Made by a program: the position numbers and the translations under genes
Assembly: GCF_051251695.1 (NCBI RefSeq)
Contig: NZ_JBPOEU010000013.1
Span: 37,924 to 101,923, forward strand
DNA: 64,000 nt
Direction: 5' to 3'
Origin: Maritalea sp.
GTDB lineage: Bacteria; Pseudomonadota; Alphaproteobacteria; Rhizobiales; Devosiaceae
Shown: in pieces, positions 61,076 to 64,000 of the stretch
How positions within the stretch are numbered: position 1 is the first letter of the stretch
How the letters are laid out: each line of letters starts with the position of its first letter
The notes under the pieces: generated by a model
The model's input: the letters and a program-made list of their open reading frames with translations, nothing else
What the model was told of the DNA's origin: nothing
Databases searched by the model: none

Positions 61076-61597
61076 TCACCCAAACAAACTCAATTGCGGA
61101 AGCTCGGCGTTATCAACGGCGGGCTTTTCTGCTTTTTTCTTAGGCTTTGGTTTCGACGCTGGTTTCTCAATCGCTTGATTTGGTGTAATTTTTGCCTCTA
61201 GCGATTGAGATGAAATCATCGCCAGCACGTCGGCACTTAAGGTTTCAAGCAATTGCGCATATGCCGCTTTTCCTTGCACGCGAAGCGCTTCACCGCTTTT
61301 ACTTAGGATGAAATGTTTCGCCCGCGCATCGCGCTTGCACGGCTTTACCCGCACCAATTTGCGCTTTTCCAACTTGTCCATCATCGCACTGGCTGAAGCT
61401 TTGTTGACGCCCATAGCGGTTACCAAATCATGCAGATGCTGGCCGTGAAAATCATCAGCCGTGCTAAGTACTTCTTGTTCTTTGATTGCGCTTAAATATT
61501 CGAATTCGCTGTAACTTAGCCCCAGCGTCGAGCCATGTTTCATCCAGTGGCGATGGGCCTGCCGGTGCAGTGTTTCCAAATGATCGGCGATATTCAT
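61076..61597 (-). CDS. MarR-family regulator with a Lys/Pro-rich tail
   Basis: LS.SEFEYL, MGVNKASASAM..KLE.R.LV and DARAK...L...G motifs. Confidence 0.8.
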   Translation of the reverse strand: MNIADHLETLHRQAHRHWMKHGSTLGLSYSEFEYLSAIKEQEVLSTADDFHGQHLHDLVTAMGVNKASASAMMDKLEKRKLVRVKPCKRDARAKHFILSKSGEALRVQGKAAYAQLLETLSADVLAMISSQSLEAKITPNQAIEKPASKPKPKKKAEKPAVDNAELPQLSLFG

Positions 61598-61613
61598 ATG
61601 CAATCCAAAATTT

Positions 61614-61744: not shown

Positions 61745-61969
61745 CTAGCAGCCAATTTTCTTTCGAATTTTTTGAACGTCAGCAAGTGATTTGCAAACAT
61801 TCTCGCAAGGAATTCCATCTCCGTCGCCATCTGCTCTCGGGTGGCTTCCTTCGCACCAGTTTTTAACGGCTTGTTGGCAAGTCGAGTAGCTTTTGCAAGT
61901 GGCAGCCTGGGCTGAGGTTGTGCTTAGAAATAGTGCCAATATGAATGTCGTAAAAATACACTTTTGCAT
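61745..61969 (-). CDS. Secreted Excalibur calcium-binding domain protein
   Basis: Signal peptide; C....TC.......RADGDGDGIPCE motif; RBS AGGAG. Confidence 0.85.
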   Translation of the reverse strand: MQKCIFTTFILALFLSTTSAQAATCKSYSTCQQAVKNWCEGSHPRADGDGDGIPCENVCKSLADVQKIRKKIGC

Positions 61970-62215: not shown

Positions 62216-63430
62216 ATGACCGAAGAATTTCACCGTATACGCAGACTACCCCCTTACGTGTTTGAACATATCAACCCGATCAAGGCGGCGGCGCGAGCGG
62301 CGGGAACGGACATTATAGATCTTGGCATGGGCAATCCAGACTTGCCGACCCCCAAGCACATTGTTGAAAAACTAAAAGAAACCGTGAACGATCCGCGTAC
62401 CCACCGCTATTCGTCGTCTCAGGGCATTCCCGGACTTCGCAAAGCGCAGGCGTCCTATTATGGCCGCCGTTTTGGCGTGAAGCTGGACCCTGACACGCAA
62501 GTTGTCGCCACGCTTGGCTCCAAAGAAGGGTTTGCCAACATGGCGTCGGCCATCACCGCGCCCGGTGATGTGGTGTTGGTGCCTAATCCAACTTATCCCA
62601 TTCACTCATTTGGCTTCATCATGTCTGGCGGCGTAGTTCGTTCTATGCCAGCTGAGCCGAATGAGCACTTCTTTGAGGCGTTAGATCGCTCCGTACGGCA
62701 TTCAATTCCAAAGCCAATCGCGTTGATTTTGAATTATCCATCTAACCCAACAGCCTATGTTGCGGACCTAGATTTCTATAAACGGGTCGTTGAATATTGC
62801 CGCAAGCACGAGATTTTCATCCTGTCGGATCTCGCTTACTCCGAAATCTATTTTGACGGCACACCACCGCCTTCAATTCTAGAAGTGCCCGGCGCTATAG
62901 ACATCGCAGTTGAATTCACATCAATGTCCAAAACATTCTCGATGCCGGGTTGGCGCATGGGATTTGCTGTCGGCAATGAACGTTTGATCAAGGCGTTAAA
63001 ACGCGTGAAATCCTATTTGGATTATGGCGCGTTTACGCCAATTCAAGTCGCCGCCGCCGCCGCTCTTAACGGCCCAGATGATTGCGTTTCTGAAGTGCGC
63101 GAGATTTATCAACATCGCCGCGATGTGCTGGTCGACAGCTTTGCGCGCGCAGGGTGGGACGTCGCACCACCACCGGCAACCATGTTCGCGTGGACCCCAA
63201 TTCCCGAGCAGTTCGCACATTTAGGTTCGCTCGAGTTCGCCAAATTGTTGATCAAAGAGGCAGACGTTGCGGTAGCACCAGGTCTGGGCTTCGGTGAATA
63301 TGGCGACAACTACGTGCGCATCGCCCTAGTAGAAAACGAACAACGCATCCGCCAAGCAGCCCGCAACATCAAAAAATTCATGACTGAGCACGGCAAACGC
63401 GGCGATAATGTCGTGAAAATGAGCAAGTAA
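62216..63430 (+). CDS. PLP-dependent class I aminotransferase (AlaC/YfdZ-like, often annotated LL-DAP aminotransferase)
   Basis: RLPPYVF, DLGMGNPD, NYPSNPT, DLAY and SMSK.FSMPGWRMG motifs; upstream of hom as usual in alphaproteobacteria. Confidence 0.88.
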   Translation: MTEEFHRIRRLPPYVFEHINPIKAAARAAGTDIIDLGMGNPDLPTPKHIVEKLKETVNDPRTHRYSSSQGIPGLRKAQASYYGRRFGVKLDPDTQVVATLGSKEGFANMASAITAPGDVVLVPNPTYPIHSFGFIMSGGVVRSMPAEPNEHFFEALDRSVRHSIPKPIALILNYPSNPTAYVADLDFYKRVVEYCRKHEIFILSDLAYSEIYFDGTPPPSILEVPGAIDIAVEFTSMSKTFSMPGWRMGFAVGNERLIKALKRVKSYLDYGAFTPIQVAAAAALNGPDDCVSEVREIYQHRRDVLVDSFARAGWDVAPPPATMFAWTPIPEQFAHLGSLEFAKLLIKEADVAVAPGLGFGEYGDNYVRIALVENEQRIRQAARNIKKFMTEHGKRGDNVVKMSK

Positions 63431-63456: not shown

Positions 63457-63488
63457 AGGCGTGCGTCTATCGGACGGGTGCCTTTTTT
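63457..63488 (+). terminator. Terminator between the aminotransferase gene and hom
   Basis: Imperfect AGGCGTGCGTC/GACGGGTGCCT stem followed by TTTTT. Confidence 0.6.
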
Positions 63489-63520
63489 ACTTTCACTCCC
63501 AACAATCCCATGCACTACTG

Positions 63521-63551
63521 TTGACGAATAGGACTTTTCCTATTCTATAGG
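63521..63551 (+). promoter_or_regulatory. Sigma70-like promoter of hom with a 20-bp palindrome in the spacer
   Basis: TTGACG (63521-26), then TCTATA at 17 bp or TATAGG at 19 bp; GAATAGGA-CTTT-TCCTATTC at 63526-45. Confidence 0.7.
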
Positions 63552-63578: not shown

Positions 63579-64000
63579 ATGACCGAATTAGACCAGTTTC
63601 GTGACCGTGTAGAGCGCTTTATGGAACGAAATGAGTGGACACCAACCCGCTTTGGCCGGGAGTTGGCGTCTGATCCGCAATTTGTATTCAACCTTCGTGA
63701 AGGGCGCGAGCCTCGCGCCGAAACAAGAAACAAGATTACCGATATGATCAAAACCATCGAAAAACAATCCACAAATGCTAATGCTCCGATACGTATAGGT
63801 GTTGCAGGTGTTGGCACCGTTGGCGCGGCTCTTGTTTCCATTTTGCAAAGCCAGCAAGATGATGTTCAAAAGCGTTTTGGGCGCGATATCGAAGTAACCG
63901 CTGTTTGCGCTCGTTCGCGCTCACGCGATCGCGGCGTCGATATGAGCGAAGTCGAATGGTTCGACGATCCTGTTGCCCTCGCAAAGTCTAGCTCTATCGA
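63579..64000 (+). CDS. hom: Homoserine dehydrogenase with an N-terminal HTH-like domain; 3'-truncated by the window edge
   Basis: Manual translation: MTELDQFRDRVERFMERNEWTPTRFGRELASDPQFVFNLREGREPRAETRNKITDMIKTIEKQSTNANAP-IRIGVAGVGTVG...VTAVCARSRSRDRG...WFDDPVALA. No stop codon before the window end, which is why it is missing from the ORF track. Confidence 0.88.
   Translation, partial: MTELDQFRDRVERFMERNEWTPTRFGRELASDPQFVFNLREGREPRAETRNKITDMIKTIEKQSTNANAPIRIGVAGVGTVGAALVSILQSQQDDVQKRFGRDIEVTAVCARSRSRDRGVDMSEVEWFDDPVALAKSSSI

What the first reader, a model, noticed from the sequence alone, without database searches (positions are those of the whole stretch)
63579..64000. Homoserine dehydrogenase fused to a Cro/XRE-like HTH: candidate undescribed trigger enzyme
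Seen: one uninterrupted frame from ATG 63579. Residues 1-60 (FRDRVERFMERNEWTPTRFGRELASDPQFVFNLREGREPRAETRNKI) are followed by a short linker and the Hom Rossmann motif PIRIGVAGVGTVG at residue 70. Known: Hom normally starts a few residues before that motif and is regulated through a C-terminal ACT domain. The N-terminal pattern (F.....M..T.FGR....DP.FV..LR.GR.PR..T) matches small stand-alone alphaproteobacterial HTH proteins, often phage-associated (from recall). Enzyme-HTH fusions such as PutA, BirA and NadR regulate transcription. Inference: a domesticated HTH turns Hom into a sensor-repressor linking Thr, homoserine or NAD(P)H status to DNA binding at the adjacent palindrome. I know of no description of such a fusion.
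Basis: partly seen in the sequence, partly recalled or inferred. Interest (0 to 1): 0.85.

Follow-up and report, generated by a model that had tools for sequence, protein, structure and literature searches.

The report
Homoserine dehydrogenase fused to Cro-like repressor
In the bacterial family Devosiaceae, the only homoserine dehydrogenase carries a phage-type DNA-binding domain at its front end and sits behind that domain family's usual palindromic binding site, so this amino-acid enzyme very probably controls its own gene, an arrangement I found described nowhere.

Summary
One frame runs from ATG 63579 off the window end and gives a 504-aa protein: a 65-residue four-helix domain, a short flexible linker, then a complete homoserine dehydrogenase (Hom). 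It is the genome's only Hom.

The fusion is family-wide in Devosiaceae (225 of 243 genomes). It is absent from 22 other families of the order and is under purifying selection.

The domain models as a Cro/C1 (XRE) fold. It belongs to a large family with no Pfam model, made mostly of 60-100-aa alphaproteobacterial proteins; two of the closest sit at the Cro position beside CI-like repressors.

The palindrome ATAGGA-N4-TCCTAT lies inside the hom promoter and occurs once in the genome. TAGG-N6-CCTA is kept in 71 of 74 distinct Devosiaceae promoters, and its left half is lost in a clade that lost the domain. The same palindrome sits upstream of 6 of 12 unrelated family members (background 0.007 per 180 nt).

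Best reading: a mobile promoter-operator-HTH cassette was captured in front of hom, and the fusion protein autoregulates hom, probably with glpX. DNA binding, the sign of regulation and any metabolite sensing are untested. No description was found. I rate it a new variant of the trigger-enzyme kind.

The parts
62216..63430 (+). Upstream class I/II aminotransferase gene (404 aa). It is not part of the unit and only marks its 5' boundary.
   Evidence: ORF; Pfam Aminotran_1_2 at E 1.7e-65. The gene upstream of hom differs among relatives.
63463..63490 (+). Terminator-like hairpin followed by a T-run after the aminotransferase gene. It implies that hom has its own promoter.
   Evidence: stem 63463-63481, then CTTTTTT.
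63521..63526 (+). TTGACG, candidate -35 hexamer.
   Evidence: Read. TTGAC is invariant in 74 distinct Devosiaceae hom promoters and is kept in the species that lost the HTH domain.
63528..63543 (.). Palindrome ATAGGA-CTTT-TCCTAT, the candidate operator. It fills the spacer between the -35 hexamer and the -10 region, and its half-site centres are about one helical turn apart.
   Evidence: It occurs once in the 3.7-Mb genome, and it is the top PWM hit at 22.9 against 18.8 for the next site. TAGG-N6-CCTA is present in 71 of 74 distinct family promoters with invariant inner spacing. Its left half is lost in the HTH-minus clade. The same palindrome lies upstream of 6 of 12 unrelated family members.
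63544..63549 (+). TCTATA, candidate -10 hexamer 17 nt after TTGACG. The assignment is uncertain; CCTAT itself may be part of an alphaproteobacterial-type -10 region.
   Evidence: Read. The strict E. coli-type scan does not call it. TAT is retained in HTH-minus species.
63579..63773 (+). N-terminal Cro/XRE-fold HTH domain, residues 1-65. Helices: H1 3-18, H2 22-28, H3 35-40 (presumed recognition helix DPQFVFNL), H4 47-65.
   Evidence: AF2 pLDDT 83.6 for the domain alone and 87-90 within the full-length model. Foldseek matches to HipB, SinR, C.AhdI and phage Cro/C1 proteins at TM 0.55-0.75. The profile finds 2386 relatives. Purifying selection.
63744..63746 (+).
   Evidence: Met is conserved at this helix-4 position in stand-alone family members too. 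There is no Shine-Dalgarno signal: mean duplex energy -1.6 against a coding background of -2.45.
63774..63785 (+). Short variable linker, residues 66-69.
   Evidence: Sequence varies and length varies by 2 residues across the family. pLDDT is 62 for residues 61-70 in the full-length model.
63786..64000 (+). Start of the homoserine dehydrogenase body (Rossmann motif PIRIGVAGVGTVG onward). It continues beyond the window to G000:C20:103016, with glpX 64 nt downstream.
   Evidence: NCBIfam PRK06349 at 515 bits. Pfam NAD_binding_3, Homoserine_dh and ACT. PDB Hom chains align to residues 72-505 only. It is the only Hom in the genome. No terminator-like site lies before glpX.

Best explanation
In an ancestor of Devosiaceae, a small self-regulating gene from a mobile-element family of Cro-like HTH proteins landed directly upstream of hom. 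It arrived with its own promoter and its TAGGA-N4-TCCTA operator. It then lost its stop codon and became the N-terminal domain of the cell's only homoserine dehydrogenase.

The 504-aa protein is translated from ATG 63579. Its Hom body does the normal catalysis. Its HTH domains, brought together by the oligomeric enzyme, bind the palindrome 63528-63543, which fills the space between the -35 and -10 elements of the hom promoter. This most likely blocks RNA polymerase and so feeds back on transcription of hom, and probably of the downstream glpX.

Shown here: the fusion, its age and the selection on it, the fold, the family it comes from, and the link between this family and this palindrome. Inferred: DNA binding by the fused form, repression rather than activation, and any modulation by threonine (through the ACT domain), substrates or cofactor.
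For: Fusion and selection:
- One frame of 504 aa.
- Present in 225 of 243 Devosiaceae genomes, and in 163 of 171 good-quality ones.
- Lengths of 502/504 aa, with the Rossmann motif in frame in 78 of 80 named loci.
- Absent from 22 other families of the order.
- pN/pS of 0.34 with saturated pS.
- It is the only Hom in the genome.

Fold:
- AF2 gives four helices at pLDDT 84-90 and a low-confidence linker.
- All top PDB and viral fold matches are Cro/C1-type HTH proteins: TM up to 0.75, rmsd 1.5-2.2 A, probability up to 1.0.

Family:
- 2386 profile hits, mostly 60-100 aa.
- Two of the closest stand-alone members sit divergent from Peptidase_S24 (CI-like) genes.
- A phage copy is annotated as a DNA-binding protein.

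Operator link:
1. The palindrome is unique in the genome.
2. TAGG-N6-CCTA is present in 71 of 74 distinct promoters. Its inner spacing is fixed even where its distance to TTGAC shifts.
3. The Hom tree shows one gain and two nested losses. In the g18 loss clade, TTGACC and TAT persist but TAGG is gone in 6 of 6 loci.
4. Six of 12 unrelated family members have an exact TAGG-N6-CCTA within 180 nt upstream, against a background of 0.0067; nine have it with one mismatch or fewer.
5. One member with a different helix (FVSQ) has the same layout with different bases, TTGACGA-GTCGGA-N4-TCCGAC-TAT.
Against: - No experiment exists.
- Foldseek E-values are weak (0.04-1), as is usual for a 60-residue domain. 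No Pfam HTH model matches.
- The domain has no net positive charge, and its presumed recognition helix is unusually hydrophobic (F-V-F). This is read from the sequence.
- In solved Hom structures the nucleotide-binding domains, where the N-terminus lies, are distal to the dimer interface (from memory, not measured here). With a linker of only a few residues, two HTHs of one dimer may not reach adjacent major grooves.
- The right half of the palindrome overlaps the likely -10 region, so part of its conservation could be due to the promoter alone.
- The family-wide co-occurrence stems from a single gain, and the operator decay rests on essentially one loss clade.
- The -10 element is not securely placed, so activation cannot be excluded.
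Confidence: 0.7

Rival explanations
1. The protein binds the palindrome but acts as an activator or as a dual switch. The site fills the promoter spacer, so binding could realign poorly spaced -35 and -10 elements, as MerR-type regulators do, instead of occluding them.
For: The operator lies wholly within the spacer. The -10 element is not E. coli-like and is not called by the consensus scan. TTGAC to CCTAT leaves only 14 nt if TAT starts the -10, while TCTATA gives 17 nt, so the geometry is ambiguous. An earlier first-reader note raised the 19-bp MerR-like alternative.
Against: The fold is Cro/C1, not MerR. Stand-alone relatives occupy Cro positions, where promoter occlusion is the rule. Species that lost the domain keep the same TTGACC-to-TAT spacing and must still express their only hom, so the promoter works without the protein.
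Confidence: 0.12
2. The extension is a domesticated fold that no longer binds DNA in the fused context. It might serve, for example, as an oligomerisation, stability or partner-binding module for Hom. The palindrome would then be conserved as a promoter element or as the site of some other factor.
For: The domain has zero net charge and a hydrophobic third helix (from the sequence). The right half-site overlaps the likely -10 region. The short linker may hinder dimeric DNA contact. Other XRE-fold proteins, such as MBF1/EDF1, bind ribosomes rather than DNA.
Against: The left half-site in the spacer has no promoter role, yet it is kept in 71 of 74 distinct promoters and decays once the domain is lost. 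The same palindrome accompanies family members in unrelated contexts. The site is unique in the genome, so it is not a global regulator's motif.
Confidence: 0.1
3. The main enzyme is made from an internal start at or near Met56. The long HTH-Hom form would then be a minor isoform, or the upstream part would act mainly as a translated leader.
For: A Met stands at residue 56 or 57 in all 19 aligned sequences, and Met57 is at least 90% conserved among 73. The upstream ATG has no Shine-Dalgarno signal either.
Against: The Met is equally conserved in stand-alone family members that have nothing downstream, so it is a structural residue of helix 4. There is no Shine-Dalgarno signal before it. Fifty-five upstream codons are under purifying selection as a folded domain. 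In about a quarter of loci the promoter box ends only 12-15 nt before the upstream ATG, which suggests leaderless or near-leaderless mRNAs that start translation at that ATG (inference).
Confidence: 0.08

Closest known systems
Trigger enzymes with a fused DNA-binding domain: PutA (ribbon-helix-helix plus proline dehydrogenase), BirA (winged HTH plus biotin ligase), NadR (HTH plus NMN adenylyltransferase)
   Same: A metabolic enzyme carries an N-terminal DNA-binding domain in the same polypeptide, and its presumed operator lies at the promoter of its own gene or pathway. This rests on my knowledge of these systems; the architecture here is shown.
   Different: The enzyme is different (homoserine dehydrogenase, at the Thr/Met/Ile branch point) and so is the type of DNA-binding domain (Cro/C1 fold from a mobile-element family). 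The operator appears to have arrived together with the domain. Ligand control of DNA binding, which defines PutA, BirA and NadR function, is not shown here.
Phage Cro/CI-type (XRE, lambda-repressor-like) HTH proteins, e.g. 434 Cro and repressor, HipB, SinR, C.AhdI
   Same: The helical fold matches (TM 0.55-0.75). The sequence pattern h-x-x-h-R/E-x-G-x-x-x-P after the recognition helix is also shared. The palindromic operator has a 4-N6-4 layout, like the 14-bp 434 operators (from memory). Close relatives sit opposite CI-like S24 repressors.
   Different: No Pfam HTH_3/HTH_31 or NCBIfam hit; the only weak sequence hits are DUF7726 at E 0.018 and PHROG 4779 at E 1.3e-3. No PDB relative is found by sequence. 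The family's motif is RFGR...DPxFVFxLRxGREPR, and here the domain is covalently joined to an enzyme.
Canonical bacterial homoserine dehydrogenase with a C-terminal ACT domain (PRK06349; PDB 3mtj, 6dzs)
   Same: Residues 70-504 are a full-length match with the Rossmann motif, the catalytic domain and ACT. The gene order hom-glpX-(x)-recJ matches that of relatives.
   Different: A 65-residue folded domain plus linker stands where other families of the order have about 5 residues. The solved structures do not cover it.

Membership tests
Homoserine dehydrogenase (NCBIfam PRK06349 / Pfam NAD_binding_3 + Homoserine_dh + ACT) | Full-length profile match above the curated cut-off | tested here: met
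   NF004976 scores 514.9 bits against a cut-off of 205, over residues 72-506. Homoserine_dh scores 209 bits and NAD_binding_3 52 bits, both above cut-off.
Homoserine dehydrogenase (NCBIfam PRK06349 / Pfam NAD_binding_3 + Homoserine_dh + ACT) | N-terminal GxGxxG Rossmann motif and C-terminal ACT regulatory domain | tested here: met
   GVAGVGTVG at residues 74-82. ACT at 420-484 scores 25.6 bits, just under the cut-off of 27; ACT is listed for the 500-504-aa homologues.
Homoserine dehydrogenase (NCBIfam PRK06349 / Pfam NAD_binding_3 + Homoserine_dh + ACT) | Enzyme activity | not testable with these tools
   Indirect only: it is the single hom copy in a 99.5%-complete genome.
Cro/C1-type (XRE) HTH DNA-binding domains | Match to a curated sequence model (Pfam HTH_3, HTH_31 and similar) | tested here: not met
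   No such hit at E up to 10 for the domain or for 7 stand-alone relatives. One tandem relative gives Xre-like-HTH at E 8e-4, below cut-off.
Cro/C1-type (XRE) HTH DNA-binding domains | Lambda-repressor-like helical fold with a helix-turn-helix | tested here: met
   AF2 pLDDT 83.6 with 4 helices. Top 50 PDB hits are nearly all XRE proteins, plus the related EDF1/MBF1 and POU domains, at TM 0.45-0.67. BFVD hits reach TM 0.78 and include named Cro/C1 proteins. E-values are weak (0.04-1).
Cro/C1-type (XRE) HTH DNA-binding domains | Sequence-specific binding to a palindromic operator | not testable with these tools
   Comparative support only: the family co-occurs with TAGG-N6-CCTA.
Trigger enzymes with a fused DNA-binding domain (PutA/BirA/NadR type) | An intact enzyme and a DNA-binding domain in one polypeptide | tested here: met
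   Single frame with no stop, conserved in 225 of 243 genomes and under purifying selection. The protein itself has not been observed.
Trigger enzymes with a fused DNA-binding domain (PutA/BirA/NadR type) | Operator at the promoter of its own gene or pathway | tested here: met
   A unique palindrome lies inside the hom promoter and is lost together with the domain.
Trigger enzymes with a fused DNA-binding domain (PutA/BirA/NadR type) | DNA binding switched by the enzyme's substrate, product or cofactor | not testable with these tools
   No computational handle. The ACT domain is present, which makes threonine a candidate effector (inference).

The most novel reading that the evidence does not exclude
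The fusion is a true metabolite-sensing switch. Occupancy of the Hom body (threonine at the ACT domain, or homoserine, aspartate semialdehyde or NAD(P)H at the active site) would change how the tethered HTH domains are presented and so set hom-glpX transcription. That would be a one-protein feedback loop at the Thr/Met branch point.

Beyond that, the 'TAGGA-box' HTH family may be a portable promoter-operator-regulator cassette that housekeeping genes have captured more than once. Besides hom in Devosiaceae, there is a 551-aa HTH-fumarase C frame in one other alphaproteobacterial genome and HTH-transmembrane proteins in another family. Each has TAGGA-type sites upstream.
Probability: 0.3. Interest if true: 0.8.

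Novelty: new variant of a known kind. Interest (0 to 1): 0.68.

Why it matters
How hom is transcriptionally controlled in Alphaproteobacteria is, to my knowledge, largely unknown. Here a whole family of soil and marine bacteria appears to have solved it by welding a phage-type repressor domain onto the enzyme.

If confirmed, this would:
- add a central amino-acid biosynthesis enzyme to the short list of trigger enzymes;
- give a clean natural example of regulatory rewiring by capture of a complete promoter-operator-regulator cassette from a mobile element;
- define the DNA site (TAGGA-N4-TCCTA) of a large HTH family that has no Pfam model and no solved structure.

Nature has also supplied controls: clades that lost the domain and kept the promoter. 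The minimal system is one protein and one 16-bp site, so it is easy to test and could serve as a compact autoregulatory part.

Tried and rejected
- **Internal start at Met56/57 as a conserved signal.** Rejected. The Met is conserved in stand-alone relatives too, and neither ATG has a Shine-Dalgarno signal.
- **Leader RNA or riboswitch between promoter and ATG.** No Rfam match at E up to 1.
- **A wider regulon.** The exact palindrome occurs once in the genome, and the PWM scan finds no second convincing site.
- **A second palindrome as a conserved auxiliary operator.** TTAGGA-N4-TCCTAA lies 3.6 kb downstream, but it is absent from three Maritalea relatives and sits in a strain-specific insert. 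I treated it as a side note.
- **Curated family assignment for the domain.** Pfam, NCBIfam and PDB-by-sequence gave nothing significant. PHROG 4779 was only marginal.
- **Literature.** Five searches found no description of an HTH-Hom fusion or of the palindrome.
- **Split genes.** A 75-aa 'stand-alone' hit next to hom (P0158) lies beside a Hom split into 333- and 96-aa pieces, most likely a fragmented copy of the fusion in a poor assembly. Frames of 183-417 aa occur in four MAGs and one isolate chromosome (Devosia algicola, L088); I read them as probable frameshifts or assembly errors but did not check them.
- **Conservation of the HTH-FumC fusion.** It is a singleton among 41 genomes searched, so I make no claim beyond a note.
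- **Helix-operator covariation within Devosiaceae.** There was too little variation to use.

Full report
**1. The observation**

The window ends inside an open frame that starts at GTG 63570 / ATG 63579. The window is G000:C20:37924-101923. In the genome the frame continues to a stop, giving 504 aa from the ATG.

Met56 is at 63744, and PIRIGVAGVGTVG begins at P70 (63786).

Residues 72-506 match the homoserine dehydrogenase (Hom) model PRK06349 at 515 bits, against a cut-off of 205. Pfam finds NAD_binding_3, Homoserine_dh and ACT. Solved Hom structures align only from residue 72 onward. tblastn of the whole genome finds no second Hom and no second copy of the N-terminal domain.

The gene follows an aminotransferase gene and a terminator-like hairpin at 63463-63481. 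glpX follows 64 nt downstream with no terminator-like site in between.

**2. The extension is real, old and selected**

- Searching the 72 N-terminal residues in 60 relatives gave strong matches (E 1e-16 or better, 49-83% identity) in 33 genomes of the same family, spanning about 20 genera. In all but one the match lies in an open frame of about 505-550 aa; the exception is a 192-aa frame in a 66%-complete MAG. Nothing below E 0.01 turned up in 24 other families of the order.
- Named genomes identify the family as Devosiaceae (Maritalea, Devosia, Pelagibacterium, Cucumibacter). The window is from a Maritalea close to M. porphyrae.
- Across 243 family genomes, 225 carry the domain, including 163 of 171 good-quality ones.
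- In 80 named loci the Rossmann motif is in frame in 78, and lengths cluster at 502 and 504 aa.
- An ATG 23 codons before RFGR, the start of the extension, is found in all 19 loci examined.
- In 22 outgroup loci, Hom nearly always starts 5 residues before the Rossmann motif.
- Nonsynonymous divergence is far below synonymous: pN 0.245 against a saturated pS of 0.73. In the three within-genus pairs where dS could be computed, dN/dS is about 0.07-0.12. The extension is therefore translated and constrained as protein.
- Public gene callers already predict the 500-504-aa product. They name it simply homoserine dehydrogenase and place no domain on the extension.

**3. What the domain is**

AlphaFold2 with the family alignment gives a confident four-helix bundle (pLDDT 83.6) with helices at 3-18, 22-28, 35-40 and 47-65. 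In the full-length model the domain keeps pLDDT 87-90. Confidence drops to 62 for residues 61-70, so the linker is probably flexible.

Foldseek against the PDB returns almost only Cro/C1 (XRE) HTH proteins such as HipB, SinR, C.AhdI, ClgR and HigA, plus the related EDF1/MBF1 and POU domains. TM-scores are 0.45-0.67, with rmsd about 2 A over 53-57 residues in the best matches. Against viral models, TM reaches 0.78 and named Cro/C1 regulators appear. E-values are weak (0.04-1), as expected for so small a domain.

No curated sequence model matches, and no PDB entry matches by sequence. PHROG 4779, 'transcriptional regulator', is marginal at E 1.3e-3.

A profile search of 1.84 billion representative proteins finds 2386 relatives at E 0.001 or better. 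Most are 60-100 aa. Some are tandem duplications, some carry an extra HTH_17 domain, and one carries a T5orf172 domain.

Two of the closest stand-alone members lie divergent from Peptidase_S24 (CI/LexA-like) genes, which is the classic Cro position. A roseobacter phage copy is annotated as a DNA-binding protein at the head of an early operon.

It is therefore a structural residue. Neither it nor the upstream ATG has a Shine-Dalgarno signal.

**4. The palindrome belongs to the domain**

The sequence is TTGACG (63521-63526), one base, then ATAGGA-CTTT-TCCTAT (63528-63543), then TCTATA.

*Uniqueness in the genome.* The exact palindrome occurs once in 3.7 Mb. In a scan with a family-derived weight matrix it is the top hit, at 22.9 bits against 18.8 for the next site.

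*Conservation across the family.* I anchored only on TTGAC, without requiring the palindrome. Of 74 distinct Devosiaceae hom promoters, 71 have TAGG-N6-CCTA. The inner spacing never varies, even in the six loci where the distance to TTGAC is one base longer. About three quarters also have a third CCTAT half-site one helical turn upstream, overlapping the -35 hexamer.

*Loss of the domain.* A maximum-likelihood Hom tree places all Devosiaceae in one clade (100/100 support). It shows two nested groups that lack the domain, which implies one gain and two later losses.
- In one loss (G036), the whole upstream region was replaced.
- In the other, a clade of one genus, Hom keeps a 13-17-residue N-terminal stub. 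The promoter keeps TTGACC and TAT at the same spacing. The spacer half-site has drifted to AAGG, AAGC, AAGT, CTTG, CCTG or ACGA, so TAGG survives in 0 of 6 loci.

This is the pattern expected if TAGG is constrained only while the HTH domain is present.

*Other family members.* I examined twelve family members not fused to Hom, drawn from different alphaproteobacterial families and from metagenomes.
- Six have an exact TAGG-N6-CCTA within 180 nt upstream of their own gene, and nine have it with at most one mismatch. Background rates in the same loci are 0.0067 and 0.04 per 180 nt.
- Examples are AATAGG-N6-CCTATT just before the Cro-position gene, and ATAGGA-ATTA-TCCTAT before an HTH-transmembrane protein.
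- One member whose third helix reads FVSQ instead of FVFD has the same layout with different bases: TTGACGA-GTCGGA-N4-TCCGAC-TAT. This is a single case of helix-operator covariation.

**5. Mechanism proposed**

A self-regulated small HTH gene arrived upstream of hom together with its promoter and operator, lost its stop codon and fused to hom. The fusion protein binds the palindrome in its own promoter spacer and autoregulates hom, probably together with glpX.

I favour repression, for three reasons: the site fills the promoter core, stand-alone relatives occupy Cro positions, and species without the domain still use the same promoter.

In about a quarter of loci the CCTAT box ends only 12-15 nt before the ATG. 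This suggests leaderless or near-leaderless mRNAs, which would explain the missing Shine-Dalgarno signal and favours the upstream ATG as the true start. This point is inference.

Nothing here shows whether threonine (through the ACT domain), substrates or cofactor alter DNA binding.

**6. Weaknesses**

- The right half-site overlaps the probable -10 region.
- The domain is not basic overall, and its presumed recognition helix is hydrophobic.
- The linker is short and Hom N-termini may lie far apart in the oligomer. I did not measure this.
- The operator-decay argument rests on essentially one clade.

**7. Comparison with what is known**

The logic is that of trigger enzymes with a fused DNA-binding domain (PutA, BirA, NadR). 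The enzyme, the domain type and the apparent capture of a complete cassette differ from those cases.

The domain has the Cro/C1 fold but fails every curated sequence model. It is best described as a family of that fold with no Pfam model.

Five literature searches found no description of the fusion or of the site. Two earlier first-reader notes from this scan had spotted the extension in another genome and the palindrome in this one. Both are confirmed here.

**8. Verdict**

This is a new variant of a known kind. Interest is 0.68. Confidence is 0.7 for DNA-binding autoregulation and about 0.3 for true metabolite sensing combined with the cassette-capture idea (the novel case).

Noticed in passing
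L002:5094-5109 (G000:C20:105093-105108, about 3.6 kb beyond the window end): A second perfect palindrome of the same type, TTAGGA-GAAA-TCCTAA, lies about 50 nt upstream of a 519-aa TPR + HEPN_LA2681 gene. It is the only other TAGGA-N4-TCCTA in the genome. It sits in a strain-specific insert between glpX and recJ, and three Maritalea relatives have a different gene there and no such site.
   Followed up: partly
L164:1459-3111 (G281:C51, a different alphaproteobacterial family): A 551-aa frame joins a member of the same HTH family to a complete class II fumarase (Lyase_1 + FumaraseC_C) with no stop between them. AATAGGAAATATCCCT and TTCCTAT lie upstream. It was found in only this one of 41 genomes searched, so it could be a lineage-specific fusion or an assembly artefact.
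   Followed up: partly
L158:1501-2769 and L161:1501-2946 (G341, G483; family f100): The same HTH domain heads proteins of 423 and 482 aa that carry a predicted transmembrane helix and a long coiled-coil or Ala-rich region. Both have perfect TAGGA-N4-TCCTA palindromes 30-40 nt upstream; in L161 it is ATAGGA-ATTA-TCCTAT.
   Followed up: no
L155-L157, L159, L166-L178 (G306, G271, G403 and others): Tandem two-copy versions of the domain occur in frames of about 240 aa and in several copies per genome (up to 10 domain matches in G403). Tandem relatives from the profile search (P0054, P0094) carry a C-terminal HTH_17. This points to a mobile element family built on this domain.
   Followed up: no
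Hom tree, stem of the Devosiaceae clade: The branch leading to all Devosiaceae Hom sequences is long (0.77 changes per site) compared with branches inside the clade. This hints at accelerated change in the enzyme body around the time of the fusion.
   Followed up: no
window 61076-61603 (-) and 61745-61969 (-): A MarR-family regulator has an unusual Lys/Pro-rich C-terminal tail. Next to it is a 74-aa Cys-rich protein with a likely signal peptide and a weak Excalibur calcium-binding match.
   Followed up: no
L002:4492-7398 compared with L146-L148: Between glpX and recJ this genome carries three ORFs, of which the 168- and 132-aa ones have no Pfam match. One is the TPR-HEPN protein, a possible defence gene. 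Relatives have a single 293-314-aa gene in that position.
   Followed up: partly
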